The notes beneath the pieces are model-generated. The model worked only from the letters and a program-made list of their open reading frames with translations. It was not told the DNA's origin and did no database searches. The position numbers were made by a program, and so were the translations under genes. From positions 13,098-77,097 of the IMG/VR virus record IMGVR_UViG_3300028558_000024: DNA of 64,000 nucleotides; one strand, written 5' to 3'. How positions within the stretch are numbered: position 1 is the stretch's first letter; every line of letters begins with the position of its first letter. This DNA is from a virus. Positions 482 to 52,646 of the stretch are shown in pieces.

Positions 482-671
482 GAAACCAGAATGGAAAACA
501 AAAACAACCATCAATAACGCTATGGCTCGCAATGAAGAGACTCGGCAGCACTTGAAGGCTGAGTTGTGGAAAGTGATTGAAGAAAAGACCCGTGATACGG
601 ACGCGGAAACAATGAACGACCTTTCTGATGCGTTGGCATGGCGTGTTATGAGCTATTTCGGCTATATGTAA
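471..671 (+). CDS. hypothetical protein
   Basis: overlaps upstream stop; GGAGG upstream of TTG start. Confidence 0.5.
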   Translation: MKSKKPEWKTKTTINNAMARNEETRQHLKAELWKVIEEKTRDTDAETMNDLSDALAWRVMSYFGYM

Positions 672-958: not shown

Positions 959-1599
959 TTTCTTGCCATTTGATTGTTGGCGATTATAGGCTTTCGGGTA
1001 ATATCGAAAATGATACTGAATGCTCCGTGAACATTTTTGATTTTGAGACTTATCCTATGTCGGCAGCAGTGGCGGCAGTTTGCTGCGAGAAATTCAACAA
1101 GATAATTGATGAAGGGCCCGAGCGTGAGATCTCTCTTTTCTTTCCCAGGAAAAGACAAAAGCAGACCTTTCATGGAAGGCTATTGATAGCTTGTTTGCCG
1201 GATGCAAAAAGCCACCAAGGCGATCAAAAATTGCGTGTTAGGTTTCGGGTCGACAAATTTATCGCGCATACGGTTTGAGGTTGAGATGTTCACGCAAGAA
1301 GAAATCATTCTCCTTAACGGGCTGCTTTGTCATCCAAATCGCGGATGGCATCACGCGCACGAAATCATGTATGAGGTGCTGTGCTTGGAGAAAACAGACC
1401 ACTACCGAGCAATAGCCCGAGTGAAGATTGGCGCAATTACAAAAAAAGATCCGAATCTGATTGAAGCTAAGACTCAAGAAGGACCGTGGCGAGTAAACCG
1501 CAAATATCTTCTTGATTCGTATTTGCAGCGGCCAGTGGCTAACGATAAACCAAAAACAGAGTCTAGTTATGTAGAACAACTTGAAGCGGCGGGGATGAT

Positions 1600-2914: not shown

Positions 2915-3333
2915 TGGGAACGAATTATTACTTACTGAAAGACGTTTGCAAGCATTGCGGCCGTGGCGATGACAAAATCCACTTGGGAAAATGTTCTTCC
3001 GGCTGGGCGTTCACCTTTCGTGGCTACAGAGAAAACGATCCGAATAATGGAATTGATGGCGTGAAAGTCGAATGCATTGAAGACTGGCTCAACCTGATTA
3101 GACACACTCCGAATTCAAAGATCGTTGATGAATACGGCAGAGAAGAAAACCAAGAAGACTTCATAACATCGGCTGTATATCACGGCTTTAACTACGAAAA
3201 GCGAACTGGACGAAAGGCGCTTCAACACGCCGAATATTCTCACAACCAGAAAGACCCGATGTTTAGGCGCCATGCGCTAGAAACAGATGAAATGATCGGC
3301 GGTCACAGTTTTACTTTTGTGGAGTTCAGCTAA
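2914..3333 (+). CDS. conserved phage hypothetical protein (MGTNYY...CxxCG...HLGKxSxGW type)
   Basis: N-terminal motif pattern recalled from phage hypotheticals; GAGG RBS. Confidence 0.6.
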   Translation: MGTNYYLLKDVCKHCGRGDDKIHLGKCSSGWAFTFRGYRENDPNNGIDGVKVECIEDWLNLIRHTPNSKIVDEYGREENQEDFITSAVYHGFNYEKRTGRKALQHAEYSHNQKDPMFRRHALETDEMIGGHSFTFVEFS

Positions 3334-50962: not shown

Positions 50963-51007
50963 TGGAACGAACGATTGTTAGAAACCCAAACTGAAGGAAA
51001 AACTAAA

Positions 51008-51757
51008 ATGTCAATAAAACAACTAAACCAATTGATCGCTCTGGAAAAAGGCGTAAAGCAACGGACATACAAAGAGATTGACGCAGCATATGACTTGCTG
51101 CGAAAACCGGAAGTACTCAATGGATTTGCAAAGGAATACCAGCCGCTTGAGGAAAACGGACAAAGCTTGCCGTCCGAATCGAAGAAAGTTCAGATAACGT
51201 CCGGTGAACTCTTTGAAATTATCAAAGATCAGATGATCGAATACCTCAATATTGAAACCAGCAAGGATTTTACGAATGCTTCTGCAACCGGTGACATCAT
51301 CGCCAATGGTGTCGAGATCCAAAAGGGCGTTCCGGTTACAACATTGCTGGCATTGGAGAAACAACTTCTTGATCTGAGAACCAGTATTGAAAAAGCTGTA
51401 ACGCTTGATCCTTCGCAAGACTGGAAGTTCGACAAAGCTACTGGCTGCCAACGAACAGAACCGGTAAGAAAAGCTCGCACCAACAAGGTTCCAAAGGTAA
51501 TTACGTTGGCACCCGCTACAGACAAGCACCCCGCCCAAACACAGCTCCTTCAAGAAGATGTGATCGCAGGCTATTGGGTGCAAACGGAAATTTCTGGAGC
51601 ACTTGAAGCACCGACAAAACGCAACTACATTGAAAGAGTGAATGATCTTCTTGATGCAGTGAAAGCCGCACGGGAACAAGCAAACAGCACGGAAATTAAA
51701 AGGTTCGAATTCGCTGAGAAGATGTTGAATTACGTCTTCGCTGGTGATAAAGTCTAA
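51008..51757 (+). CDS. uncharacterised helical protein (LNQLIALEKGVK type) directly upstream of a tRNA-mimic RNA
   Basis: GAAGGA RBS; motifs Y.P..E.G..LP.E.K.VQ, VP...LL.LEKQL, A.ATDKHPAQ, SGA, AVK.ARE.AN. Confidence 0.8.
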   Translation: MSIKQLNQLIALEKGVKQRTYKEIDAAYDLLRKPEVLNGFAKEYQPLEENGQSLPSESKKVQITSGELFEIIKDQMIEYLNIETSKDFTNASATGDIIANGVEIQKGVPVTTLLALEKQLLDLRTSIEKAVTLDPSQDWKFDKATGCQRTEPVRKARTNKVPKVITLAPATDKHPAQTQLLQEDVIAGYWVQTEISGALEAPTKRNYIERVNDLLDAVKAAREQANSTEIKRFEFAEKMLNYVFAGDKV

Positions 51758-51759
51758 GT

Positions 51760-52187
51760 ACGGAAACGAAGTTCAAACTTAAATTCAAGATGAAAGCGAA
51801 GTCGGTTTGATGCAGGTGCGAATCCTGCTCGGGGCTCCAATATGCCCCGGTAGCCCAACAGTCGAGGCGACCGACGAGCAAAAAGAAAATCAACTTATTT
51901 CCTAAGTTGATTGCTGAAAGCAAGGTGTCTCAAGCACCACTGCAAATCACTGGAAGATTTCGGTTCAAATCCGAACTCGGGCGCCATGCCTGGGTAGCTT
52001 AATGGCAGAGCATCCTTTCTTAGACCTAAAGCAGTGGTTTAAACGTCGTCACCACGCGAAGAAAACAGCATAAAAGCATATAGCTCAATAGTAGAGCGAT
52101 TGACTTGTAATCAATTTGTTCTGGGTGCGATTCCCAGTATGCAAAATAAATACCGGGGGCGTCTCAGGCTACGAGGCGCCTCCACCA
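51760..52187 (+). ncRNA. large structured RNA built from tRNA-like modules (boundaries approximate)
   Basis: permuted T-acceptor-D modules at 51801-51875 and 51952-52015; cloverleaf 52076-52142; minihelix-ACCA 52155-52187; enclosing helix 51936-43/52031-38. Confidence 0.75.
52076..52142 (+). tRNA. tRNA-Thr(TGT)-like cloverleaf with 5-bp acceptor stem and no CCA
   Basis: GCATA-TA-GCTC/GAGC D arm, ATTGA-CTTGTAA-TCAAT, CTGGG-TGCGATT-CCCAG, TATGC. Confidence 0.65.
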
Positions 52188-52201
52188 TTTAGTAATTACT
52201 T

Positions 52202-52230
52202 TTGCCATAAACGACTTCACGCGGTAACTT
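52202..52230 (+). promoter_or_regulatory. sigma70-like promoter for downstream tRNA-Met mimic
   Basis: TTGCCA-17 nt-TAACTT, 5 nt before element start. Confidence 0.5.
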
Positions 52231-52235
52231 CTAGT

Positions 52236-52299
52236 CAGCCAAGCGTGGAGGGGCTCAGCCTCATAACCTGAGCCCGAGCGTTCGAATCGTCCTTGGTTG
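52236..52299 (+). ncRNA. D-armless tRNA-Met(CAT)-like RNA
   Basis: CAGCCAAG/CTTGGTTG closing stem; GGGCTCAG/CTGAGCCC stem with CTCATAA loop; TTCGAAT T loop. Confidence 0.55.
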
Positions 52300-52349
52300 T
52301 CGAGAAATCGGGTAGCGGTCCCAGCCGAGCCTGCACCGACTTAGTCAAT

Positions 52350-52390
52350 AAAACACTTCATCGCCTGCACGGGATGAGGTGTTTTTGTTT
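52350..52390 (+). terminator. intrinsic, possibly bidirectional terminator
   Basis: AAAACACTTCATC...GATGAGGTGTTTTTGTTT. Confidence 0.65.
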
Positions 52391-52646
52391 TGCGGCGAAA
52401 AACTTACTTTTGCAATCCTCCTGGGCCCAAAACAAAATCAAATTACCCCCCAAACCGAAAGACGTTATTGCAGGTAAGAGATTTTGAAAACTGAAGTATC
52501 AGGAAAAGTTGTCGAGCATGAATTGACTGCAAAGGTCATCAGAGCAGACGGAACGATTGAGAAGGAAATTCTCGTCGGGTACTTCGGACCACATTTGAGA
52601 AAACACCTTATCTGCATTTGGAATAACCTCTTGAGGGCTATTAAGA

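What the first reader, a model, noticed from the sequence alone, without database searches (positions are those of the whole stretch)
52155..52187. Terminal hairpin has the form of an alanine-identity minihelix (G3.U70, A73, CCA)
Seen: GGGGGCG-TCTC-AGGCTAC-GAGG-CGCCTCC-ACCA, giving G1-C72, G2-C71, G3.U70, discriminator A and encoded CCA, with no U tract directly after the stem. Known: G3.U70 plus A73 suffices for AlaRS charging of minihelices, and this stem resembles the tmRNA acceptor. Inference: the RNA's 3' end may be alanylated, giving it tmRNA-like or aminoacyl-donor ability.
Basis: partly seen in the sequence, partly recalled or inferred. Interest (0 to 1): 0.8.

Follow-up and report, generated by a model that had tools for sequence, protein, structure and literature searches.

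The report
tRNA-like end hairpin of phage RNA
The flagged stem-loop is real and is one copy of a widespread, conserved hairpin that closes a tRNA-mimicking RNA cluster beside an unstudied gene (DUF7873) in phages and bacteria; it imitates the top half of a tRNA, but its relatives do not keep the alanine-specific features seen here, so alanine charging is probably not its job.

Summary
The hairpin at 52155-52187 is exactly as described: an 11-bp stem, a 7-nt loop, G1-C72, G2-C71, G3.U70, A73 and an encoded CCA, with no U tract.

It is not a chance hairpin. It belongs to a conserved family found about 350-900 nt downstream of DUF7873 genes in phages and bacteria. Members have:
- an 11-14 bp stem, with every seed pair covarying;
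- a loop N-G-G-N-U-A-Y;
- G1-C72;
- a single-stranded R-C-Y tail.

The hairpins often abut tRNA genes. The permuted tRNA-like modules of the same RNA carry the same N-C-Y-A tail. I read the hairpin as a mimic of the tRNA acceptor/T-arm, serving tRNA-end enzymes (RNase P, 3' trimming, CCA repair) and perhaps a protein that binds the loop.

The alanine features are not a family trait. G.U at pair 3 occurs in 5 of 62 members, no more than at other positions. NCCA occurs in about 18%. Both are scattered on the DUF7873 tree and differ among close relatives.

Within this phage's own lineage the hairpin is invariant, so local charging by AlaRS cannot be excluded (about 10%). No expression data exist.

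The scan met this hairpin family before on other DNA (note e1-5962806) and reached a similar verdict.

The parts
50975..51757 (+). DUF7873 protein gene (260 aa), the conserved neighbour of the RNA cluster
   Evidence: Pfam PF25283, E 9.7e-81. The AF2 model has pLDDT 91.9 and no significant PDB fold match. Relatives anchor the 180 or so homologous loci.
51802..51874 (+). tRNA-like module 1 in permuted order: stem strand UCGGU, T-arm GCAGG-UGCGAAU-CCUGC, acceptor 3' strand UCGGGGC, loop U-CCA-AUAU, acceptor 5' strand GCCCCGG, D-arm, stem strand ACCGA
   Evidence: Weak Rfam YrlA hit (RF02553) of 29.6 bits, E 3e-4, below the gathering score of 69. Module parser. Three compensatory double changes in the acceptor stem in the 88%-identical relative.
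51959..52016 (+). tRNA-like module 2 in permuted order: T-arm UUCGG-UUCAAAU-CCGAA, acceptor CUCGGGC, loop G-CCA-U, GCCUGGG, D-arm with GG
52074..52145 (+). tRNA-Thr(UGU)-like cloverleaf with a 5-bp acceptor stem (two A.A on top) and no encoded CCA; it ends 9 nt before the hairpin
   Evidence: ARAGORN. Rfam tRNA, 56.8 bits. Two compensatory changes in the relative (52080/52138 and 52123/52135). A tRNA-Thr(UGU) also precedes the hairpin in L084, L123, L141/142 and L161.
52155..52183 (+). The finding: end hairpin with an 11-bp stem (GGGGGCGUCUC/GAGGCGCCUCC) and loop AGGCUAC
   Evidence: CM R1 hit of 24.5 bits, E 0.005. Unchanged in the 88%-identical relative.
52184..52187 (+). Single-stranded tail ACCA (discriminator A73 plus encoded CCA), which fits the family's R-C-Y-(A/U) tail
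52353..52391 (+). Probable intrinsic terminator of the RNA cluster (10-bp stem ACACUUCAUC/GAUGAGGUGU, 10-nt loop, UUUUGUUUU). If so, the hairpin lies inside the primary transcript.
   Evidence: Read from the sequence and present in the MFE fold. The simple terminator scan does not flag it because the loop exceeds 8 nt. This is an inference.

Best explanation
The hairpin is the local copy of a conserved end hairpin of the DUF7873-linked tRNA-mimic RNA cluster. The cluster consists of two permuted tRNA-like modules, often a tRNA, and then this hairpin.

The hairpin is a third acceptor mimic, shaped like an acceptor/T-arm minihelix: a 12-13 bp helix, G1-C72, a 7-nt loop and a free R-C-Y(A) tail. 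The most likely mechanism is inferred, not shown:
- RNase P recognises it and cuts 5' of G1. Its R73-C74-Y75 tail is complementary to the GGU of the RNase P RNA P15 loop.
- The 3' side is set by cleavage at the next tRNA or in the A/U-rich trailer, followed by exonuclease trimming and CCA repair.

This would separate or cap the neighbouring RNAs and leave a stable tRNA-like end. The invariant GGNUA loop is a second recognition site, for a protein (DUF7873 is the obvious candidate) or for a tertiary contact.

The alanine identity of this copy (G3.U70, A73, CCA) is a lineage-specific state, not the family's function.
For: Family membership:
- The same hairpin lies 350-900 nt after DUF7873 on the same strand in about 50 of 82 viral loci and 32 of 48 bacterial loci.
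- CM R1 hits total 53 and 37 in those two sets, and 8 in metagenome loci.
- All 13 seed pairs change on both sides. Covariation is 1.11 against 0.25 in shuffles, although the seed was chosen for perfect pairing.

Loop motif:
- In an unbiased census, 58 of 94 perfect hairpins of 11 bp or more downstream on the + strand carry GGNUA in the loop. The three control sets give 0 of 48, 0 of 28 and 0 of 21.

tRNA-top-half features in 62 non-redundant members:
- The stem is 13 bp in 32 and 12 bp in 19.
- Pair 1 is G-C in 51.
- Tail position +1 is a purine in 44, +2 is C in 47 and +3 is a pyrimidine in 58.
- RCY occurs in 37 of 62, against about 6% expected. NCCA occurs in 11.

Other support:
- The same N-C(87%)-Y(90%)-A(60%) signature follows the acceptor 3' strands of 174 permuted modules.
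- A tRNA gene starts 1-7 nt after the tail in 11 or more loci, which argues against a terminator role there. A tRNA ends 2-25 nt before the hairpin in 7.
- Precedents in print: M. smegmatis YrlA is cut by RNase P and receives CCA in vivo (PMC4201824). The RNase P P15 loop binds the substrate RCC motif and cleaves acceptor/T hairpin models (PMC3299987). RNase P removes terminator hairpins after tRNAs (PMC4176162, PMC2811032).
Against: - There is no transcript, end-mapping, cleavage or binding datum for any member, and no RNA run holds this stretch.
- The loop is not a T-loop, and its role is unexplained. It is not complementary to the upstream RNA, and the modules have their own D-loop GG.
- Eleven of 66 members are followed by a T-run and may simply terminate transcription.
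- The stem here is 11 bp, one short of a canonical minihelix.
- The fit between R-C-Y and the P15 GGU is my inference from known RNase P biochemistry, not a test.
- The invariance of 52146-52206 in the relative includes flanks. It could reflect another constraint, such as a promoter for the downstream RNA.
Confidence: 0.6

Rival explanations
1. It is a functional alanine minihelix. In this phage lineage the hairpin is released with a 5' G1 and a 3' ACCA-OH and is charged by host AlaRS. It then acts as an anticodon-less Ala-RNA: a decoy for AlaRS or EF-Tu, an alanine donor for an aminoacyl-transferase, or an RNA whose 3' end is protected by acylation.
For: - All known sequence determinants are present: G1-C72, G2-C71, G3.U70, G4-C69, A73 and CCA. 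G3-U70 is the major AlaRS determinant in all three domains, and minihelices are charged (PMC6451123, PMC11392972).
- The acceptor is identical to that of real tmRNAs.
- The hairpin and its flanks are unchanged in a relative that is about 12% diverged, although other helices there changed by compensation.
- L029's phage, whose DUF7873 is only 26% identical, keeps the acceptor 7/7, G.U, ACCA and the loop, while the distal stem is wholly replaced.
- A at +4 is enriched after RCC (10 of 22).
Against: - L029 was found by searching for exactly this acceptor, so the match is subject to ascertainment bias.
- In the unbiased sample only 1 of 5 ACCA-tailed members has G3.U70. The others are L094, L095, L131 and L246.
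- G.U at pair 3 (5 of 62) is no commoner than at pairs 6 and 7.
- G3.U70 also occurs with non-CCA tails, in L143 and L122.
- Close relatives L092, L104 and L114 differ in identity.
- There is no evidence that the RNA is released or charged.
Confidence: 0.1
2. It is only a terminator or 3' stabiliser. The hairpin is a plain end hairpin that stops RNA polymerase (a U-less, I-shaped terminator) or blocks 3' exonucleases. Its likeness to a tRNA end is incidental.
For: - It is a GC-rich perfect stem at the end of the RNA module.
- Eleven of 66 members are followed directly by T-runs.
- In actinobacterial loci nothing else obvious ends the RNA.
Against: - A terminator needs no invariant loop, yet GGNUA occurs in 58 of 94 hairpins against 0 of 97 controls.
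- It needs no R-C-Y tail.
- In 11 or more loci a tRNA gene starts 1-7 nt after the tail on the same strand, leaving no room for a promoter.
- In the window there is no U tract, and the cluster runs on about 200 nt to a canonical terminator.
Confidence: 0.12
3. It is primarily a protein-binding site. The GGNUA loop on a long stem is the docking site for DUF7873 or another protein that assembles the RNP. The stem-end features only reflect shared ancestry with the tRNA-like modules.
For: - The loop is the only sequence kept among close relatives whose stems and tails differ (L092, L104, L114).
- The hairpin is strictly linked to DUF7873 loci.
- In Planctomycetota the hairpin lies just upstream of the gene instead of downstream, so the link is kept while the order changes.
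Against: - There is no binding datum.
- The DUF7873 model has no recognisable RNA-binding fold in PDB.
- This reading does not explain the R-C-Y tail or the tRNA-slot placement. It is compatible with the best explanation rather than exclusive of it.
Confidence: 0.15
4. It is a chance hairpin, or a remnant of a tRNA-Ala or tmRNA gene (an attP core or a deletion derivative).
Against: - A syntenic, covarying family exists in more than 100 loci.
- The loop is the family's GGNUA, not a T-loop.
- An attP core carries only the 3' part of a gene, not both acceptor strands.
Confidence: 0.01

Closest known systems
M. smegmatis-type YrlA Y RNA (Rfam RF02553; Chen et al. 2014, PMC4201824)
   Same: It is a bacterial and phage non-coding RNA built from tRNA-like parts. 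Its 7-bp acceptor mimic is cut by RNase P and receives CCA in vivo, and its authors raised possible aminoacylation and 3' protection. The window's upstream modules give a weak YrlA hit.
   Different: The hairpin itself is not part of the YrlA model. No Ro60/TROVE gene is in the 77-kb record. The partner gene is DUF7873. The hairpin has no D- or T-arm, and its loop is GGNUA. The YrlA score (29.6 bits) is far below the gathering score (69).
Synthetic acceptor/T-arm minihelices: minihelix-Ala for AlaRS (PMC6451123, PMC11392972) and the pATSerUG hairpin substrate for RNase P (PMC3299987)
   Same: Both have a coaxial stem of about 12 bp, a 7-nt loop and a free RCCA end. This copy also has G3.U70 and A73.
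   Different: Those are laboratory constructs with real T-loops or tetraloops. This one is natural and genomically encoded, with an 11-bp stem here and a conserved non-T loop. Most family members encode only R-C-Y, not CCA.
Terminator hairpins after E. coli tRNA genes that RNase P removes (valU, lysT, leuX; PMC4176162, PMC2811032)
   Same: Both are hairpins directly downstream of a tRNA in a tRNA operon, and RNase P cleavage upstream of the hairpin starts processing.
   Different: Those have U tracts and no conserved loop or RCC tail. Here most members lack U tracts and many are followed at once by another tRNA.
tmRNA tRNA-like domain (SsrA)
   Same: The acceptor stem GGGGGCG/CGCCUCC, G3.U70 and ACCA are identical to the two-piece tmRNAs in L013 and L056.
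   Different: It has no T-loop, no D-loop analogue for SmpB, no pseudoknots and no tag frame. ARAGORN and Rfam find no tmRNA.
tRNA-like processing signals (plant mitochondrial t-elements, mascRNA-type 3' tRNA-like ends). This comparison is from my own knowledge and an earlier scan note, and was not tested here.
   Same: In both, a tRNA-shaped element is used as a handle for RNase P/Z to define RNA ends.
   Different: Those occur in eukaryotic or organellar contexts and are full cloverleaf-like folds. This is a bare minihelix in phages and bacteria.

Membership tests
DUF7873-linked end hairpin family (undescribed; defined here and in scan note e1-5962806) | Lies 350-900 nt downstream of a DUF7873 gene on the same strand, after the permuted tRNA-like modules | tested here: met
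   The gene ends at 51757 and the hairpin starts at 52155. The same layout occurs in L085-L227.
DUF7873-linked end hairpin family (undescribed; defined here and in scan note e1-5962806) | Perfect 11-14 bp stem starting with G1-C72, and loop N-G-G-N-U-A-Y | tested here: met
   The stem is 11 bp and the loop is AGGCUAC. CM R1 scores 24.5 bits, E 0.005. The loop motif occurs in 58 of 94 hairpins against 0 of 97 controls.
DUF7873-linked end hairpin family (undescribed; defined here and in scan note e1-5962806) | Single-stranded R-C-Y tail | tested here: met
   The tail is ACC(A). RCY occurs in 37 of 62 family members.
Alanine-accepting minihelix (AlaRS substrate) | G3.U70 wobble pair with A73 and G1-C72/G2-C71 | tested here: met
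   Read directly from the sequence.
Alanine-accepting minihelix (AlaRS substrate) | Free 5' end at G1 and free 3'-terminal CCA-OH on the mature RNA | not testable with these tools
   CCA is encoded, but no RNA run holds the stretch. The hairpin is internal to the predicted primary transcript.
Alanine-accepting minihelix (AlaRS substrate) | Charging with alanine by AlaRS | not testable with these tools
   This needs a biochemical assay.
Alanine-accepting minihelix (AlaRS substrate) | Identity elements conserved in homologues, as for tRNA-Ala and tmRNA | tested here: not met
   G.U at pair 3 occurs in 5 of 62. Only 1 of 5 unbiased ACCA-tailed members has it. The traits are scattered on the tree.
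tmRNA (SsrA) tRNA-like domain | Alanine-type acceptor stem with ACCA | tested here: met
   Identical to the acceptors of the tmRNAs in L013 and L056.
tmRNA (SsrA) tRNA-like domain | T-arm with a T-loop, a D-loop analogue, pseudoknots and a tag reading frame | tested here: not met
   ARAGORN finds no tmRNA in the window. Rfam finds none, at gathering score over the whole window or at E up to 10 over 51600-52500 around the hairpin. The loop is AGGCUAC.
Intrinsic (Rho-independent) terminator | GC-rich hairpin followed directly by a U tract | tested here: not met
   The scan finds no terminator-like site at the hairpin. Only 11 of 66 family members have a T-run.
RNase P hairpin substrate (acceptor/T-stem model type) | Coaxial stem of about 12 bp with a 3' RCC motif able to pair with the P15 loop | tested here: met
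   The stem is 11 bp here and 12-13 bp in 51 of 62 members. The tail is A-C-C here and R-C-Y in 37 of 62. The RCC-P15 interaction is described in PMC3299987.
RNase P hairpin substrate (acceptor/T-stem model type) | Cleavage by RNase P 5' of G1 | not testable with these tools
   This needs an in vitro M1 RNA assay or in vivo end mapping.
YrlA (Rfam RF02553) | Match to the covariance model at the gathering score, and a Ro60/Rsr partner | tested here: not met
   The upstream module scores 29.6 bits against a gathering score of 69, and the hairpin is not covered. TROVE is absent from the 77-kb record, which is 68% complete.

The most novel reading that the evidence does not exclude
In this phage lineage the hairpin is cut out by tRNA-processing enzymes and alanylated by host AlaRS. 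The lineage comprises the window, its 88%-identical relative in run X20 and the distant phage of L029. The product would be a natural, genomically encoded, anticodon-less aminoacyl-RNA. It could titrate AlaRS or EF-Tu, feed an aminoacyl-transferase, or protect its own 3' end by acylation. More broadly, different family members would mimic different acceptor identities.
Probability: 0.1. Interest if true: 0.8.

Novelty: new variant of a known kind. Interest (0 to 1): 0.45.

Why it matters
tRNA mimicry by non-coding RNAs is known from YrlA, tmRNA and viral tRNA-like ends. The RNA that accompanies DUF7873 in hundreds of phages and bacteria is still undescribed in the papers and RNA libraries I could search.

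This work shows that the RNA's closing hairpin is not a plain terminator. It is a third acceptor-end mimic with a conserved GGNUA loop and an RNase P-type R-C-Y tail. That gives concrete, cheap experiments: RNase P cleavage, CCA addition and loop binding by DUF7873.

It also sets a sober prior for the striking alanine minihelix look. That look recurs sporadically at about the frequency expected for any G.U pair, so it should not be read as a new tmRNA-like system without charging data.

Tried and rejected
- Rfam 15, at the gathering score and at E up to 10, finds nothing real at the hairpin; the only hit is a chance 13-bit lncRNA match.
- The exact 33-mer is absent from viral contigs and genome contigs.
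- The pattern GGGGGCG-N9-25-CGCCTCCACCA gave 80 viral hits, the cap. Nearly all are coding sequence or chance. Only L029 is a homologue, and four hits are 3' ends of tmRNA genes.
- I tested whether the loop pairs with the upstream RNA, for example GGCUAC with the GUAGCC of module 1. This fits the window but not most loci, so I rejected it.
- I tested whether the loop GG replaces a missing D-loop GG. Most modules have their own GG, so I rejected this too.
- No RNA holder is listed for the stretch. The laid runs are DNA contigs only.
- Searches for closer relatives by protein in viral contigs and metagenome contigs found nothing above about 50% identity.
- The DUF7873 fold has no significant PDB match. 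The best hits are Cas7/Cascade chains at E 0.017 and TM 0.15, which is not evidence. The pdb_via_wide library was unavailable.
- No paper mentions DUF7873.
- I considered an attP or tmRNA remnant and a chance hairpin, and rejected both on the comparative data.
- The test of association between G3.U70 and ACCA is not significant once the two ascertained members are removed (1 of 5 against 3 of about 57).

Full report
**1. Observation**

Window 52155-52187 (+) reads GGGGGCGTCTC AGGCTAC GAGGCGCCTCC ACCA. It has 11 contiguous pairs, a 7-nt loop, G1-C72, G2-C71, G3.U70, G4-C69, discriminator A and an encoded CCA. It folds at -21.8 kcal/mol, z = -4.0. No U tract follows, and the terminator scan flags nothing there. 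The description is therefore correct. The only caveats are that the helix is 11 bp rather than 12 bp and that the loop is not a T-loop.

In Markov shuffles of the window, hairpins followed by NCCA are as common as in the real sequence (2.6 +/- 1.6 against 4). A hairpin of the alanine type (GGG.../...UCC-ACCA) arose in 0 of 60 shuffles.

**2. Surroundings**

The window is part of a 77-kb viral record from rhizosphere metagenomes. The hairpin lies in an ORF-free RNA cluster (51760-52400) directly after a DUF7873 gene at 50975-51757 (Pfam E 1e-80). The cluster holds, in order:
- Two permuted tRNA-like modules (T-arm, acceptor 3' strand, N-CCA in a loop, acceptor 5' strand, D-arm). The first gives a sub-threshold YrlA hit.
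- A tRNA-Thr(UGU)-like cloverleaf with only a 5-bp acceptor stem and no CCA.
- The hairpin, 9 nt further on.
- About 165 nt more RNA-like sequence and a probable terminator at 52353-52391.

No Ro60/TROVE gene is in the record.

**3. The hairpin belongs to a family**

Anchoring on DUF7873 proteins, I fetched 80 viral, 48 bacterial or archaeal, 14 metagenomic and 80 further viral loci.
- A hairpin with an 11-14 bp stem and loop N-G-G-N-U-A-Y lies 350-900 nt downstream on the same strand in about 50 of 82 viral loci and 32 of 48 cellular loci. The cellular hosts include Nocardia, Streptomyces, Enhygromyxa and Saccharibacteria. In Planctomycetota it lies just upstream of the gene.
- A covariance model built from 20 members finds 53, 37 and 8 hits, almost all at that place. 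The window's copy scores 24.5 bits.
- Every one of the 13 seed pairs changes on both sides. The seed was chosen for perfect pairing, so only the covariation counts as evidence.
- A census that ignores the loop gives the cleanest test. Of 94 perfect hairpins of 11 bp or more in the 900 nt downstream (+ strand) of 100 loci, 58 have GGNUA in the loop. The figures are 0 of 48 on the opposite strand and 0 of 28 and 0 of 21 upstream.

**4. What the family looks like**

In 62 non-redundant members:
- The stem is 13 bp in 32, 12 bp in 19 and 11 bp in 6.
- Pair 1 is G-C in 51 and pair 2 is G-C in 40.
- The first unpaired 3' base is a purine in 44, the next is C in 47, and the next is a pyrimidine in 58 (29 C, 29 U).
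- The fourth tail base is U in 36 and A in 14. A is enriched after RCC (10 of 22).
- RCY occurs in 37 of 62, against about 6% expected. NCCA occurs in 11.

The acceptor 3' strands of 174 permuted modules in the same loci are followed by the same signature: N-C (87%)-Y (90%)-A (60%), with NCCA in 45%.

The hairpin also sits in tRNA slots. A tRNA gene starts 1-7 nt after the 4-nt tail in L095, L099/L120, L103, L105, L110/L111, L128, L134, L151, L163 and L187. A tRNA ends 2-25 nt before the hairpin in the window, L084, L123, L125, L141/L142, L161 and L246.

These are the properties of a tRNA acceptor/T-arm minihelix, not of a plain terminator. Only 11 of 66 members are followed by a T-run.

**5. 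Mechanism (inferred)**

The R73-C74-Y75 tail is what would pair (A-U or G.U, C-G, C-G or U.G) with the GGU of the RNase P RNA P15 loop. That loop binds the RCC motif of substrates, and RNase P cleaves acceptor/T hairpin models (PMC3299987). Two precedents are in print:
- RNase P removes hairpins downstream of tRNAs in E. coli operons (PMC4176162, PMC2811032).
- The acceptor mimic of M. smegmatis YrlA is cut by RNase P and receives CCA in vivo (PMC4201824).

I therefore propose that the hairpin is a handle for tRNA-end enzymes. Cleavage 5' of G1 frees or caps the upstream RNA. The 3' side is set by the next tRNA's RNase P site or by cleavage in the A/U-rich trailer, followed by trimming and CCA repair.

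The invariant GGNUA loop needs a second explanation. It is not complementary to the upstream RNA in most loci. It does not replace a missing D-loop GG either. A protein contact is the simplest reading, and DUF7873 is the obvious candidate. The DUF7873 model (pLDDT 91.9) has no significant PDB match, so this remains a guess.

**6. The alanine reading**

Arguments against a family-wide role:
- G.U at pair 3 occurs in 5 of 62 members, no more than at pairs 6 and 7.
- It also occurs with non-CCA tails, in L143 and L122.
- Of the ACCA-tailed members found without bias, only L092 has it. L094, L095, L131 and L246 have G-C or C-G there.
- On the DUF7873 tree, the 11 NCCA members need 11 changes and the 7 G3.U70 members need 7 changes. 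This is a FastTree topology and many forks are unresolved.
- The well-supported clade L092/L104/L114 has ACCA+G3.U70, GCCA+A3-U70 and a T-run on the same loop, AGGAUAC.
- G3.U70 is neither enriched nor avoided. That suggests charging is neither selected nor harmful.

Arguments for a local role:
- A relative that is about 12% diverged (run X20, a 70-kb contig) shows no listed difference across 52146-52206. Over the same comparison, module 1's acceptor has three compensatory double changes and the tRNA-Thr-like unit has two.
- L029's phage, whose DUF7873 is only 26% identical, has tRNA-Thr(UGU), a 3-nt spacer, and then GGGGGCG GGGCC AGGCUA GGCCC CGCCUCC ACCA. The acceptor, G.U, ACCA and loop are kept, and the distal stem is fully replaced. 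L029 was found by searching for exactly that acceptor, so this is biased evidence.

Biochemically, any released copy with these ends should be an AlaRS substrate (PMC6451123, PMC11392972). Whether it is released is unknown.

The tmRNA reading fails. The acceptor is identical to those of real two-piece tmRNAs (L013, L056). Nothing else of a tmRNA is present.

**7. Relation to earlier notes**

The scan has met the DUF7873 tRNA-mimic RNA many times. It met this very hairpin type once, in note e1-5962806, which is very probably L029's genome. That note concluded [quoted passage not shown]. My own data agree on the first part. They differ on the second: the loop motif, the R-C-Y tail and the abutting tRNAs argue for a tRNA-end mimic rather than a terminator.

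**8. Verdict**

- The hairpin is a new variant of a known kind, tRNA-like processing or stability elements, within a still undescribed RNA-protein system.
- Interest is moderate.

Noticed in passing
window 51836-51843 and 51983-51987; modules in L085-L227: The loops capping the acceptor stems of the permuted tRNA-like modules begin N-CCA in 45% of 174 non-redundant modules and N-C-Y in about 80%. In the window they are U-CCA-AUAU and G-CCA-U. This resembles M. smegmatis YrlA, which RNase P cuts there and which then receives CCA. The modules may therefore be split into two-piece RNAs with free CCA ends.
   Followed up: partly
window 52074-52145: The tRNA-Thr(UGU) call has perfect D, anticodon and T arms but only a 5-bp acceptor stem (A.A, A.A on top) and no CCA. 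The 88%-identical relative shows compensatory changes at 52080/52138 and 52123/52135, so the fold is maintained. A tRNA-Thr(UGU) sits directly before the hairpin in L084, L123, L141/142 and L161, and directly after it in L103 and L187. This looks like a recurrent partner of the module.
   Followed up: partly
window 52146-52206: A 61-nt block (the hairpin plus 9 nt before and 19 nt after) shows no listed difference in a relative that differs at about 12% of positions elsewhere in 51703-52347. The flanks UAAAU and AUUUA can pair around the hairpin with symmetric ACC/ACC bulges. An ACC or CC also precedes G1 in L029, L092 and L246.
   Followed up: no
window 52040-52052; L092, L094, L095, L131 upstream of their hairpins: A conserved UUAAACG(U)CG motif lies between module 2 and the end hairpin in several otherwise diverged loci.
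   Followed up: no
window 52202-52344: Further structured sequence lies between the hairpin and the terminator: an 8-bp stem with a CUCAUAA loop and a GUUCGAAUC T-loop-like stretch. It is conserved at about 88% in the X20 relative.
   Followed up: no
L013 11125-11544; L056 3151-3493: Two viral contigs carry permuted (two-piece) tmRNA genes whose acceptor stem GGGGGCG/CGCCUCC-ACCA is identical to the window hairpin's. Their T-loop is the unusual GGCGGUA.
   Followed up: partly
L007 ~2922-2959(-), L080 ~1098-1135(-), L011 ~1335-1369(-), L045 ~500-540(-): Unrelated viral contigs hold other ACCA-ended hairpins with the same alanine-type acceptor and no tRNA nearby. They have 15-bp stems with GAAA or UUCG tetraloops, or a canonical T-loop (UUCGACU / UUUGAUU). 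They may be independent natural minihelices or tmRNA tRNA-like-domain remnants.
   Followed up: no
L107, L122, L147, L148 (DUF7873 match regions): The DUF7873 reading frame contains one in-frame stop in each of these four viral loci. These could be a recoded stop, a sequencing error or a pseudogene.
   Followed up: no
L196, L197, L199, L200 (~2440-2484): In Planctomycetota the end hairpin lies about 20 nt upstream of the DUF7873 start rather than downstream, so the order of RNA and gene is inverted there.
   Followed up: no
window 50975-51757 (protein model m76a3af29c0a5): The confident DUF7873 model (long helices plus a beta-sheet) has only insignificant Foldseek hits. The top ones are Cas7-type Cascade backbone subunits (E 0.017-0.06, TM about 0.15). 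Earlier notes mention six-letter repeats in the partner RNA. This is a lead only.
   Followed up: partly
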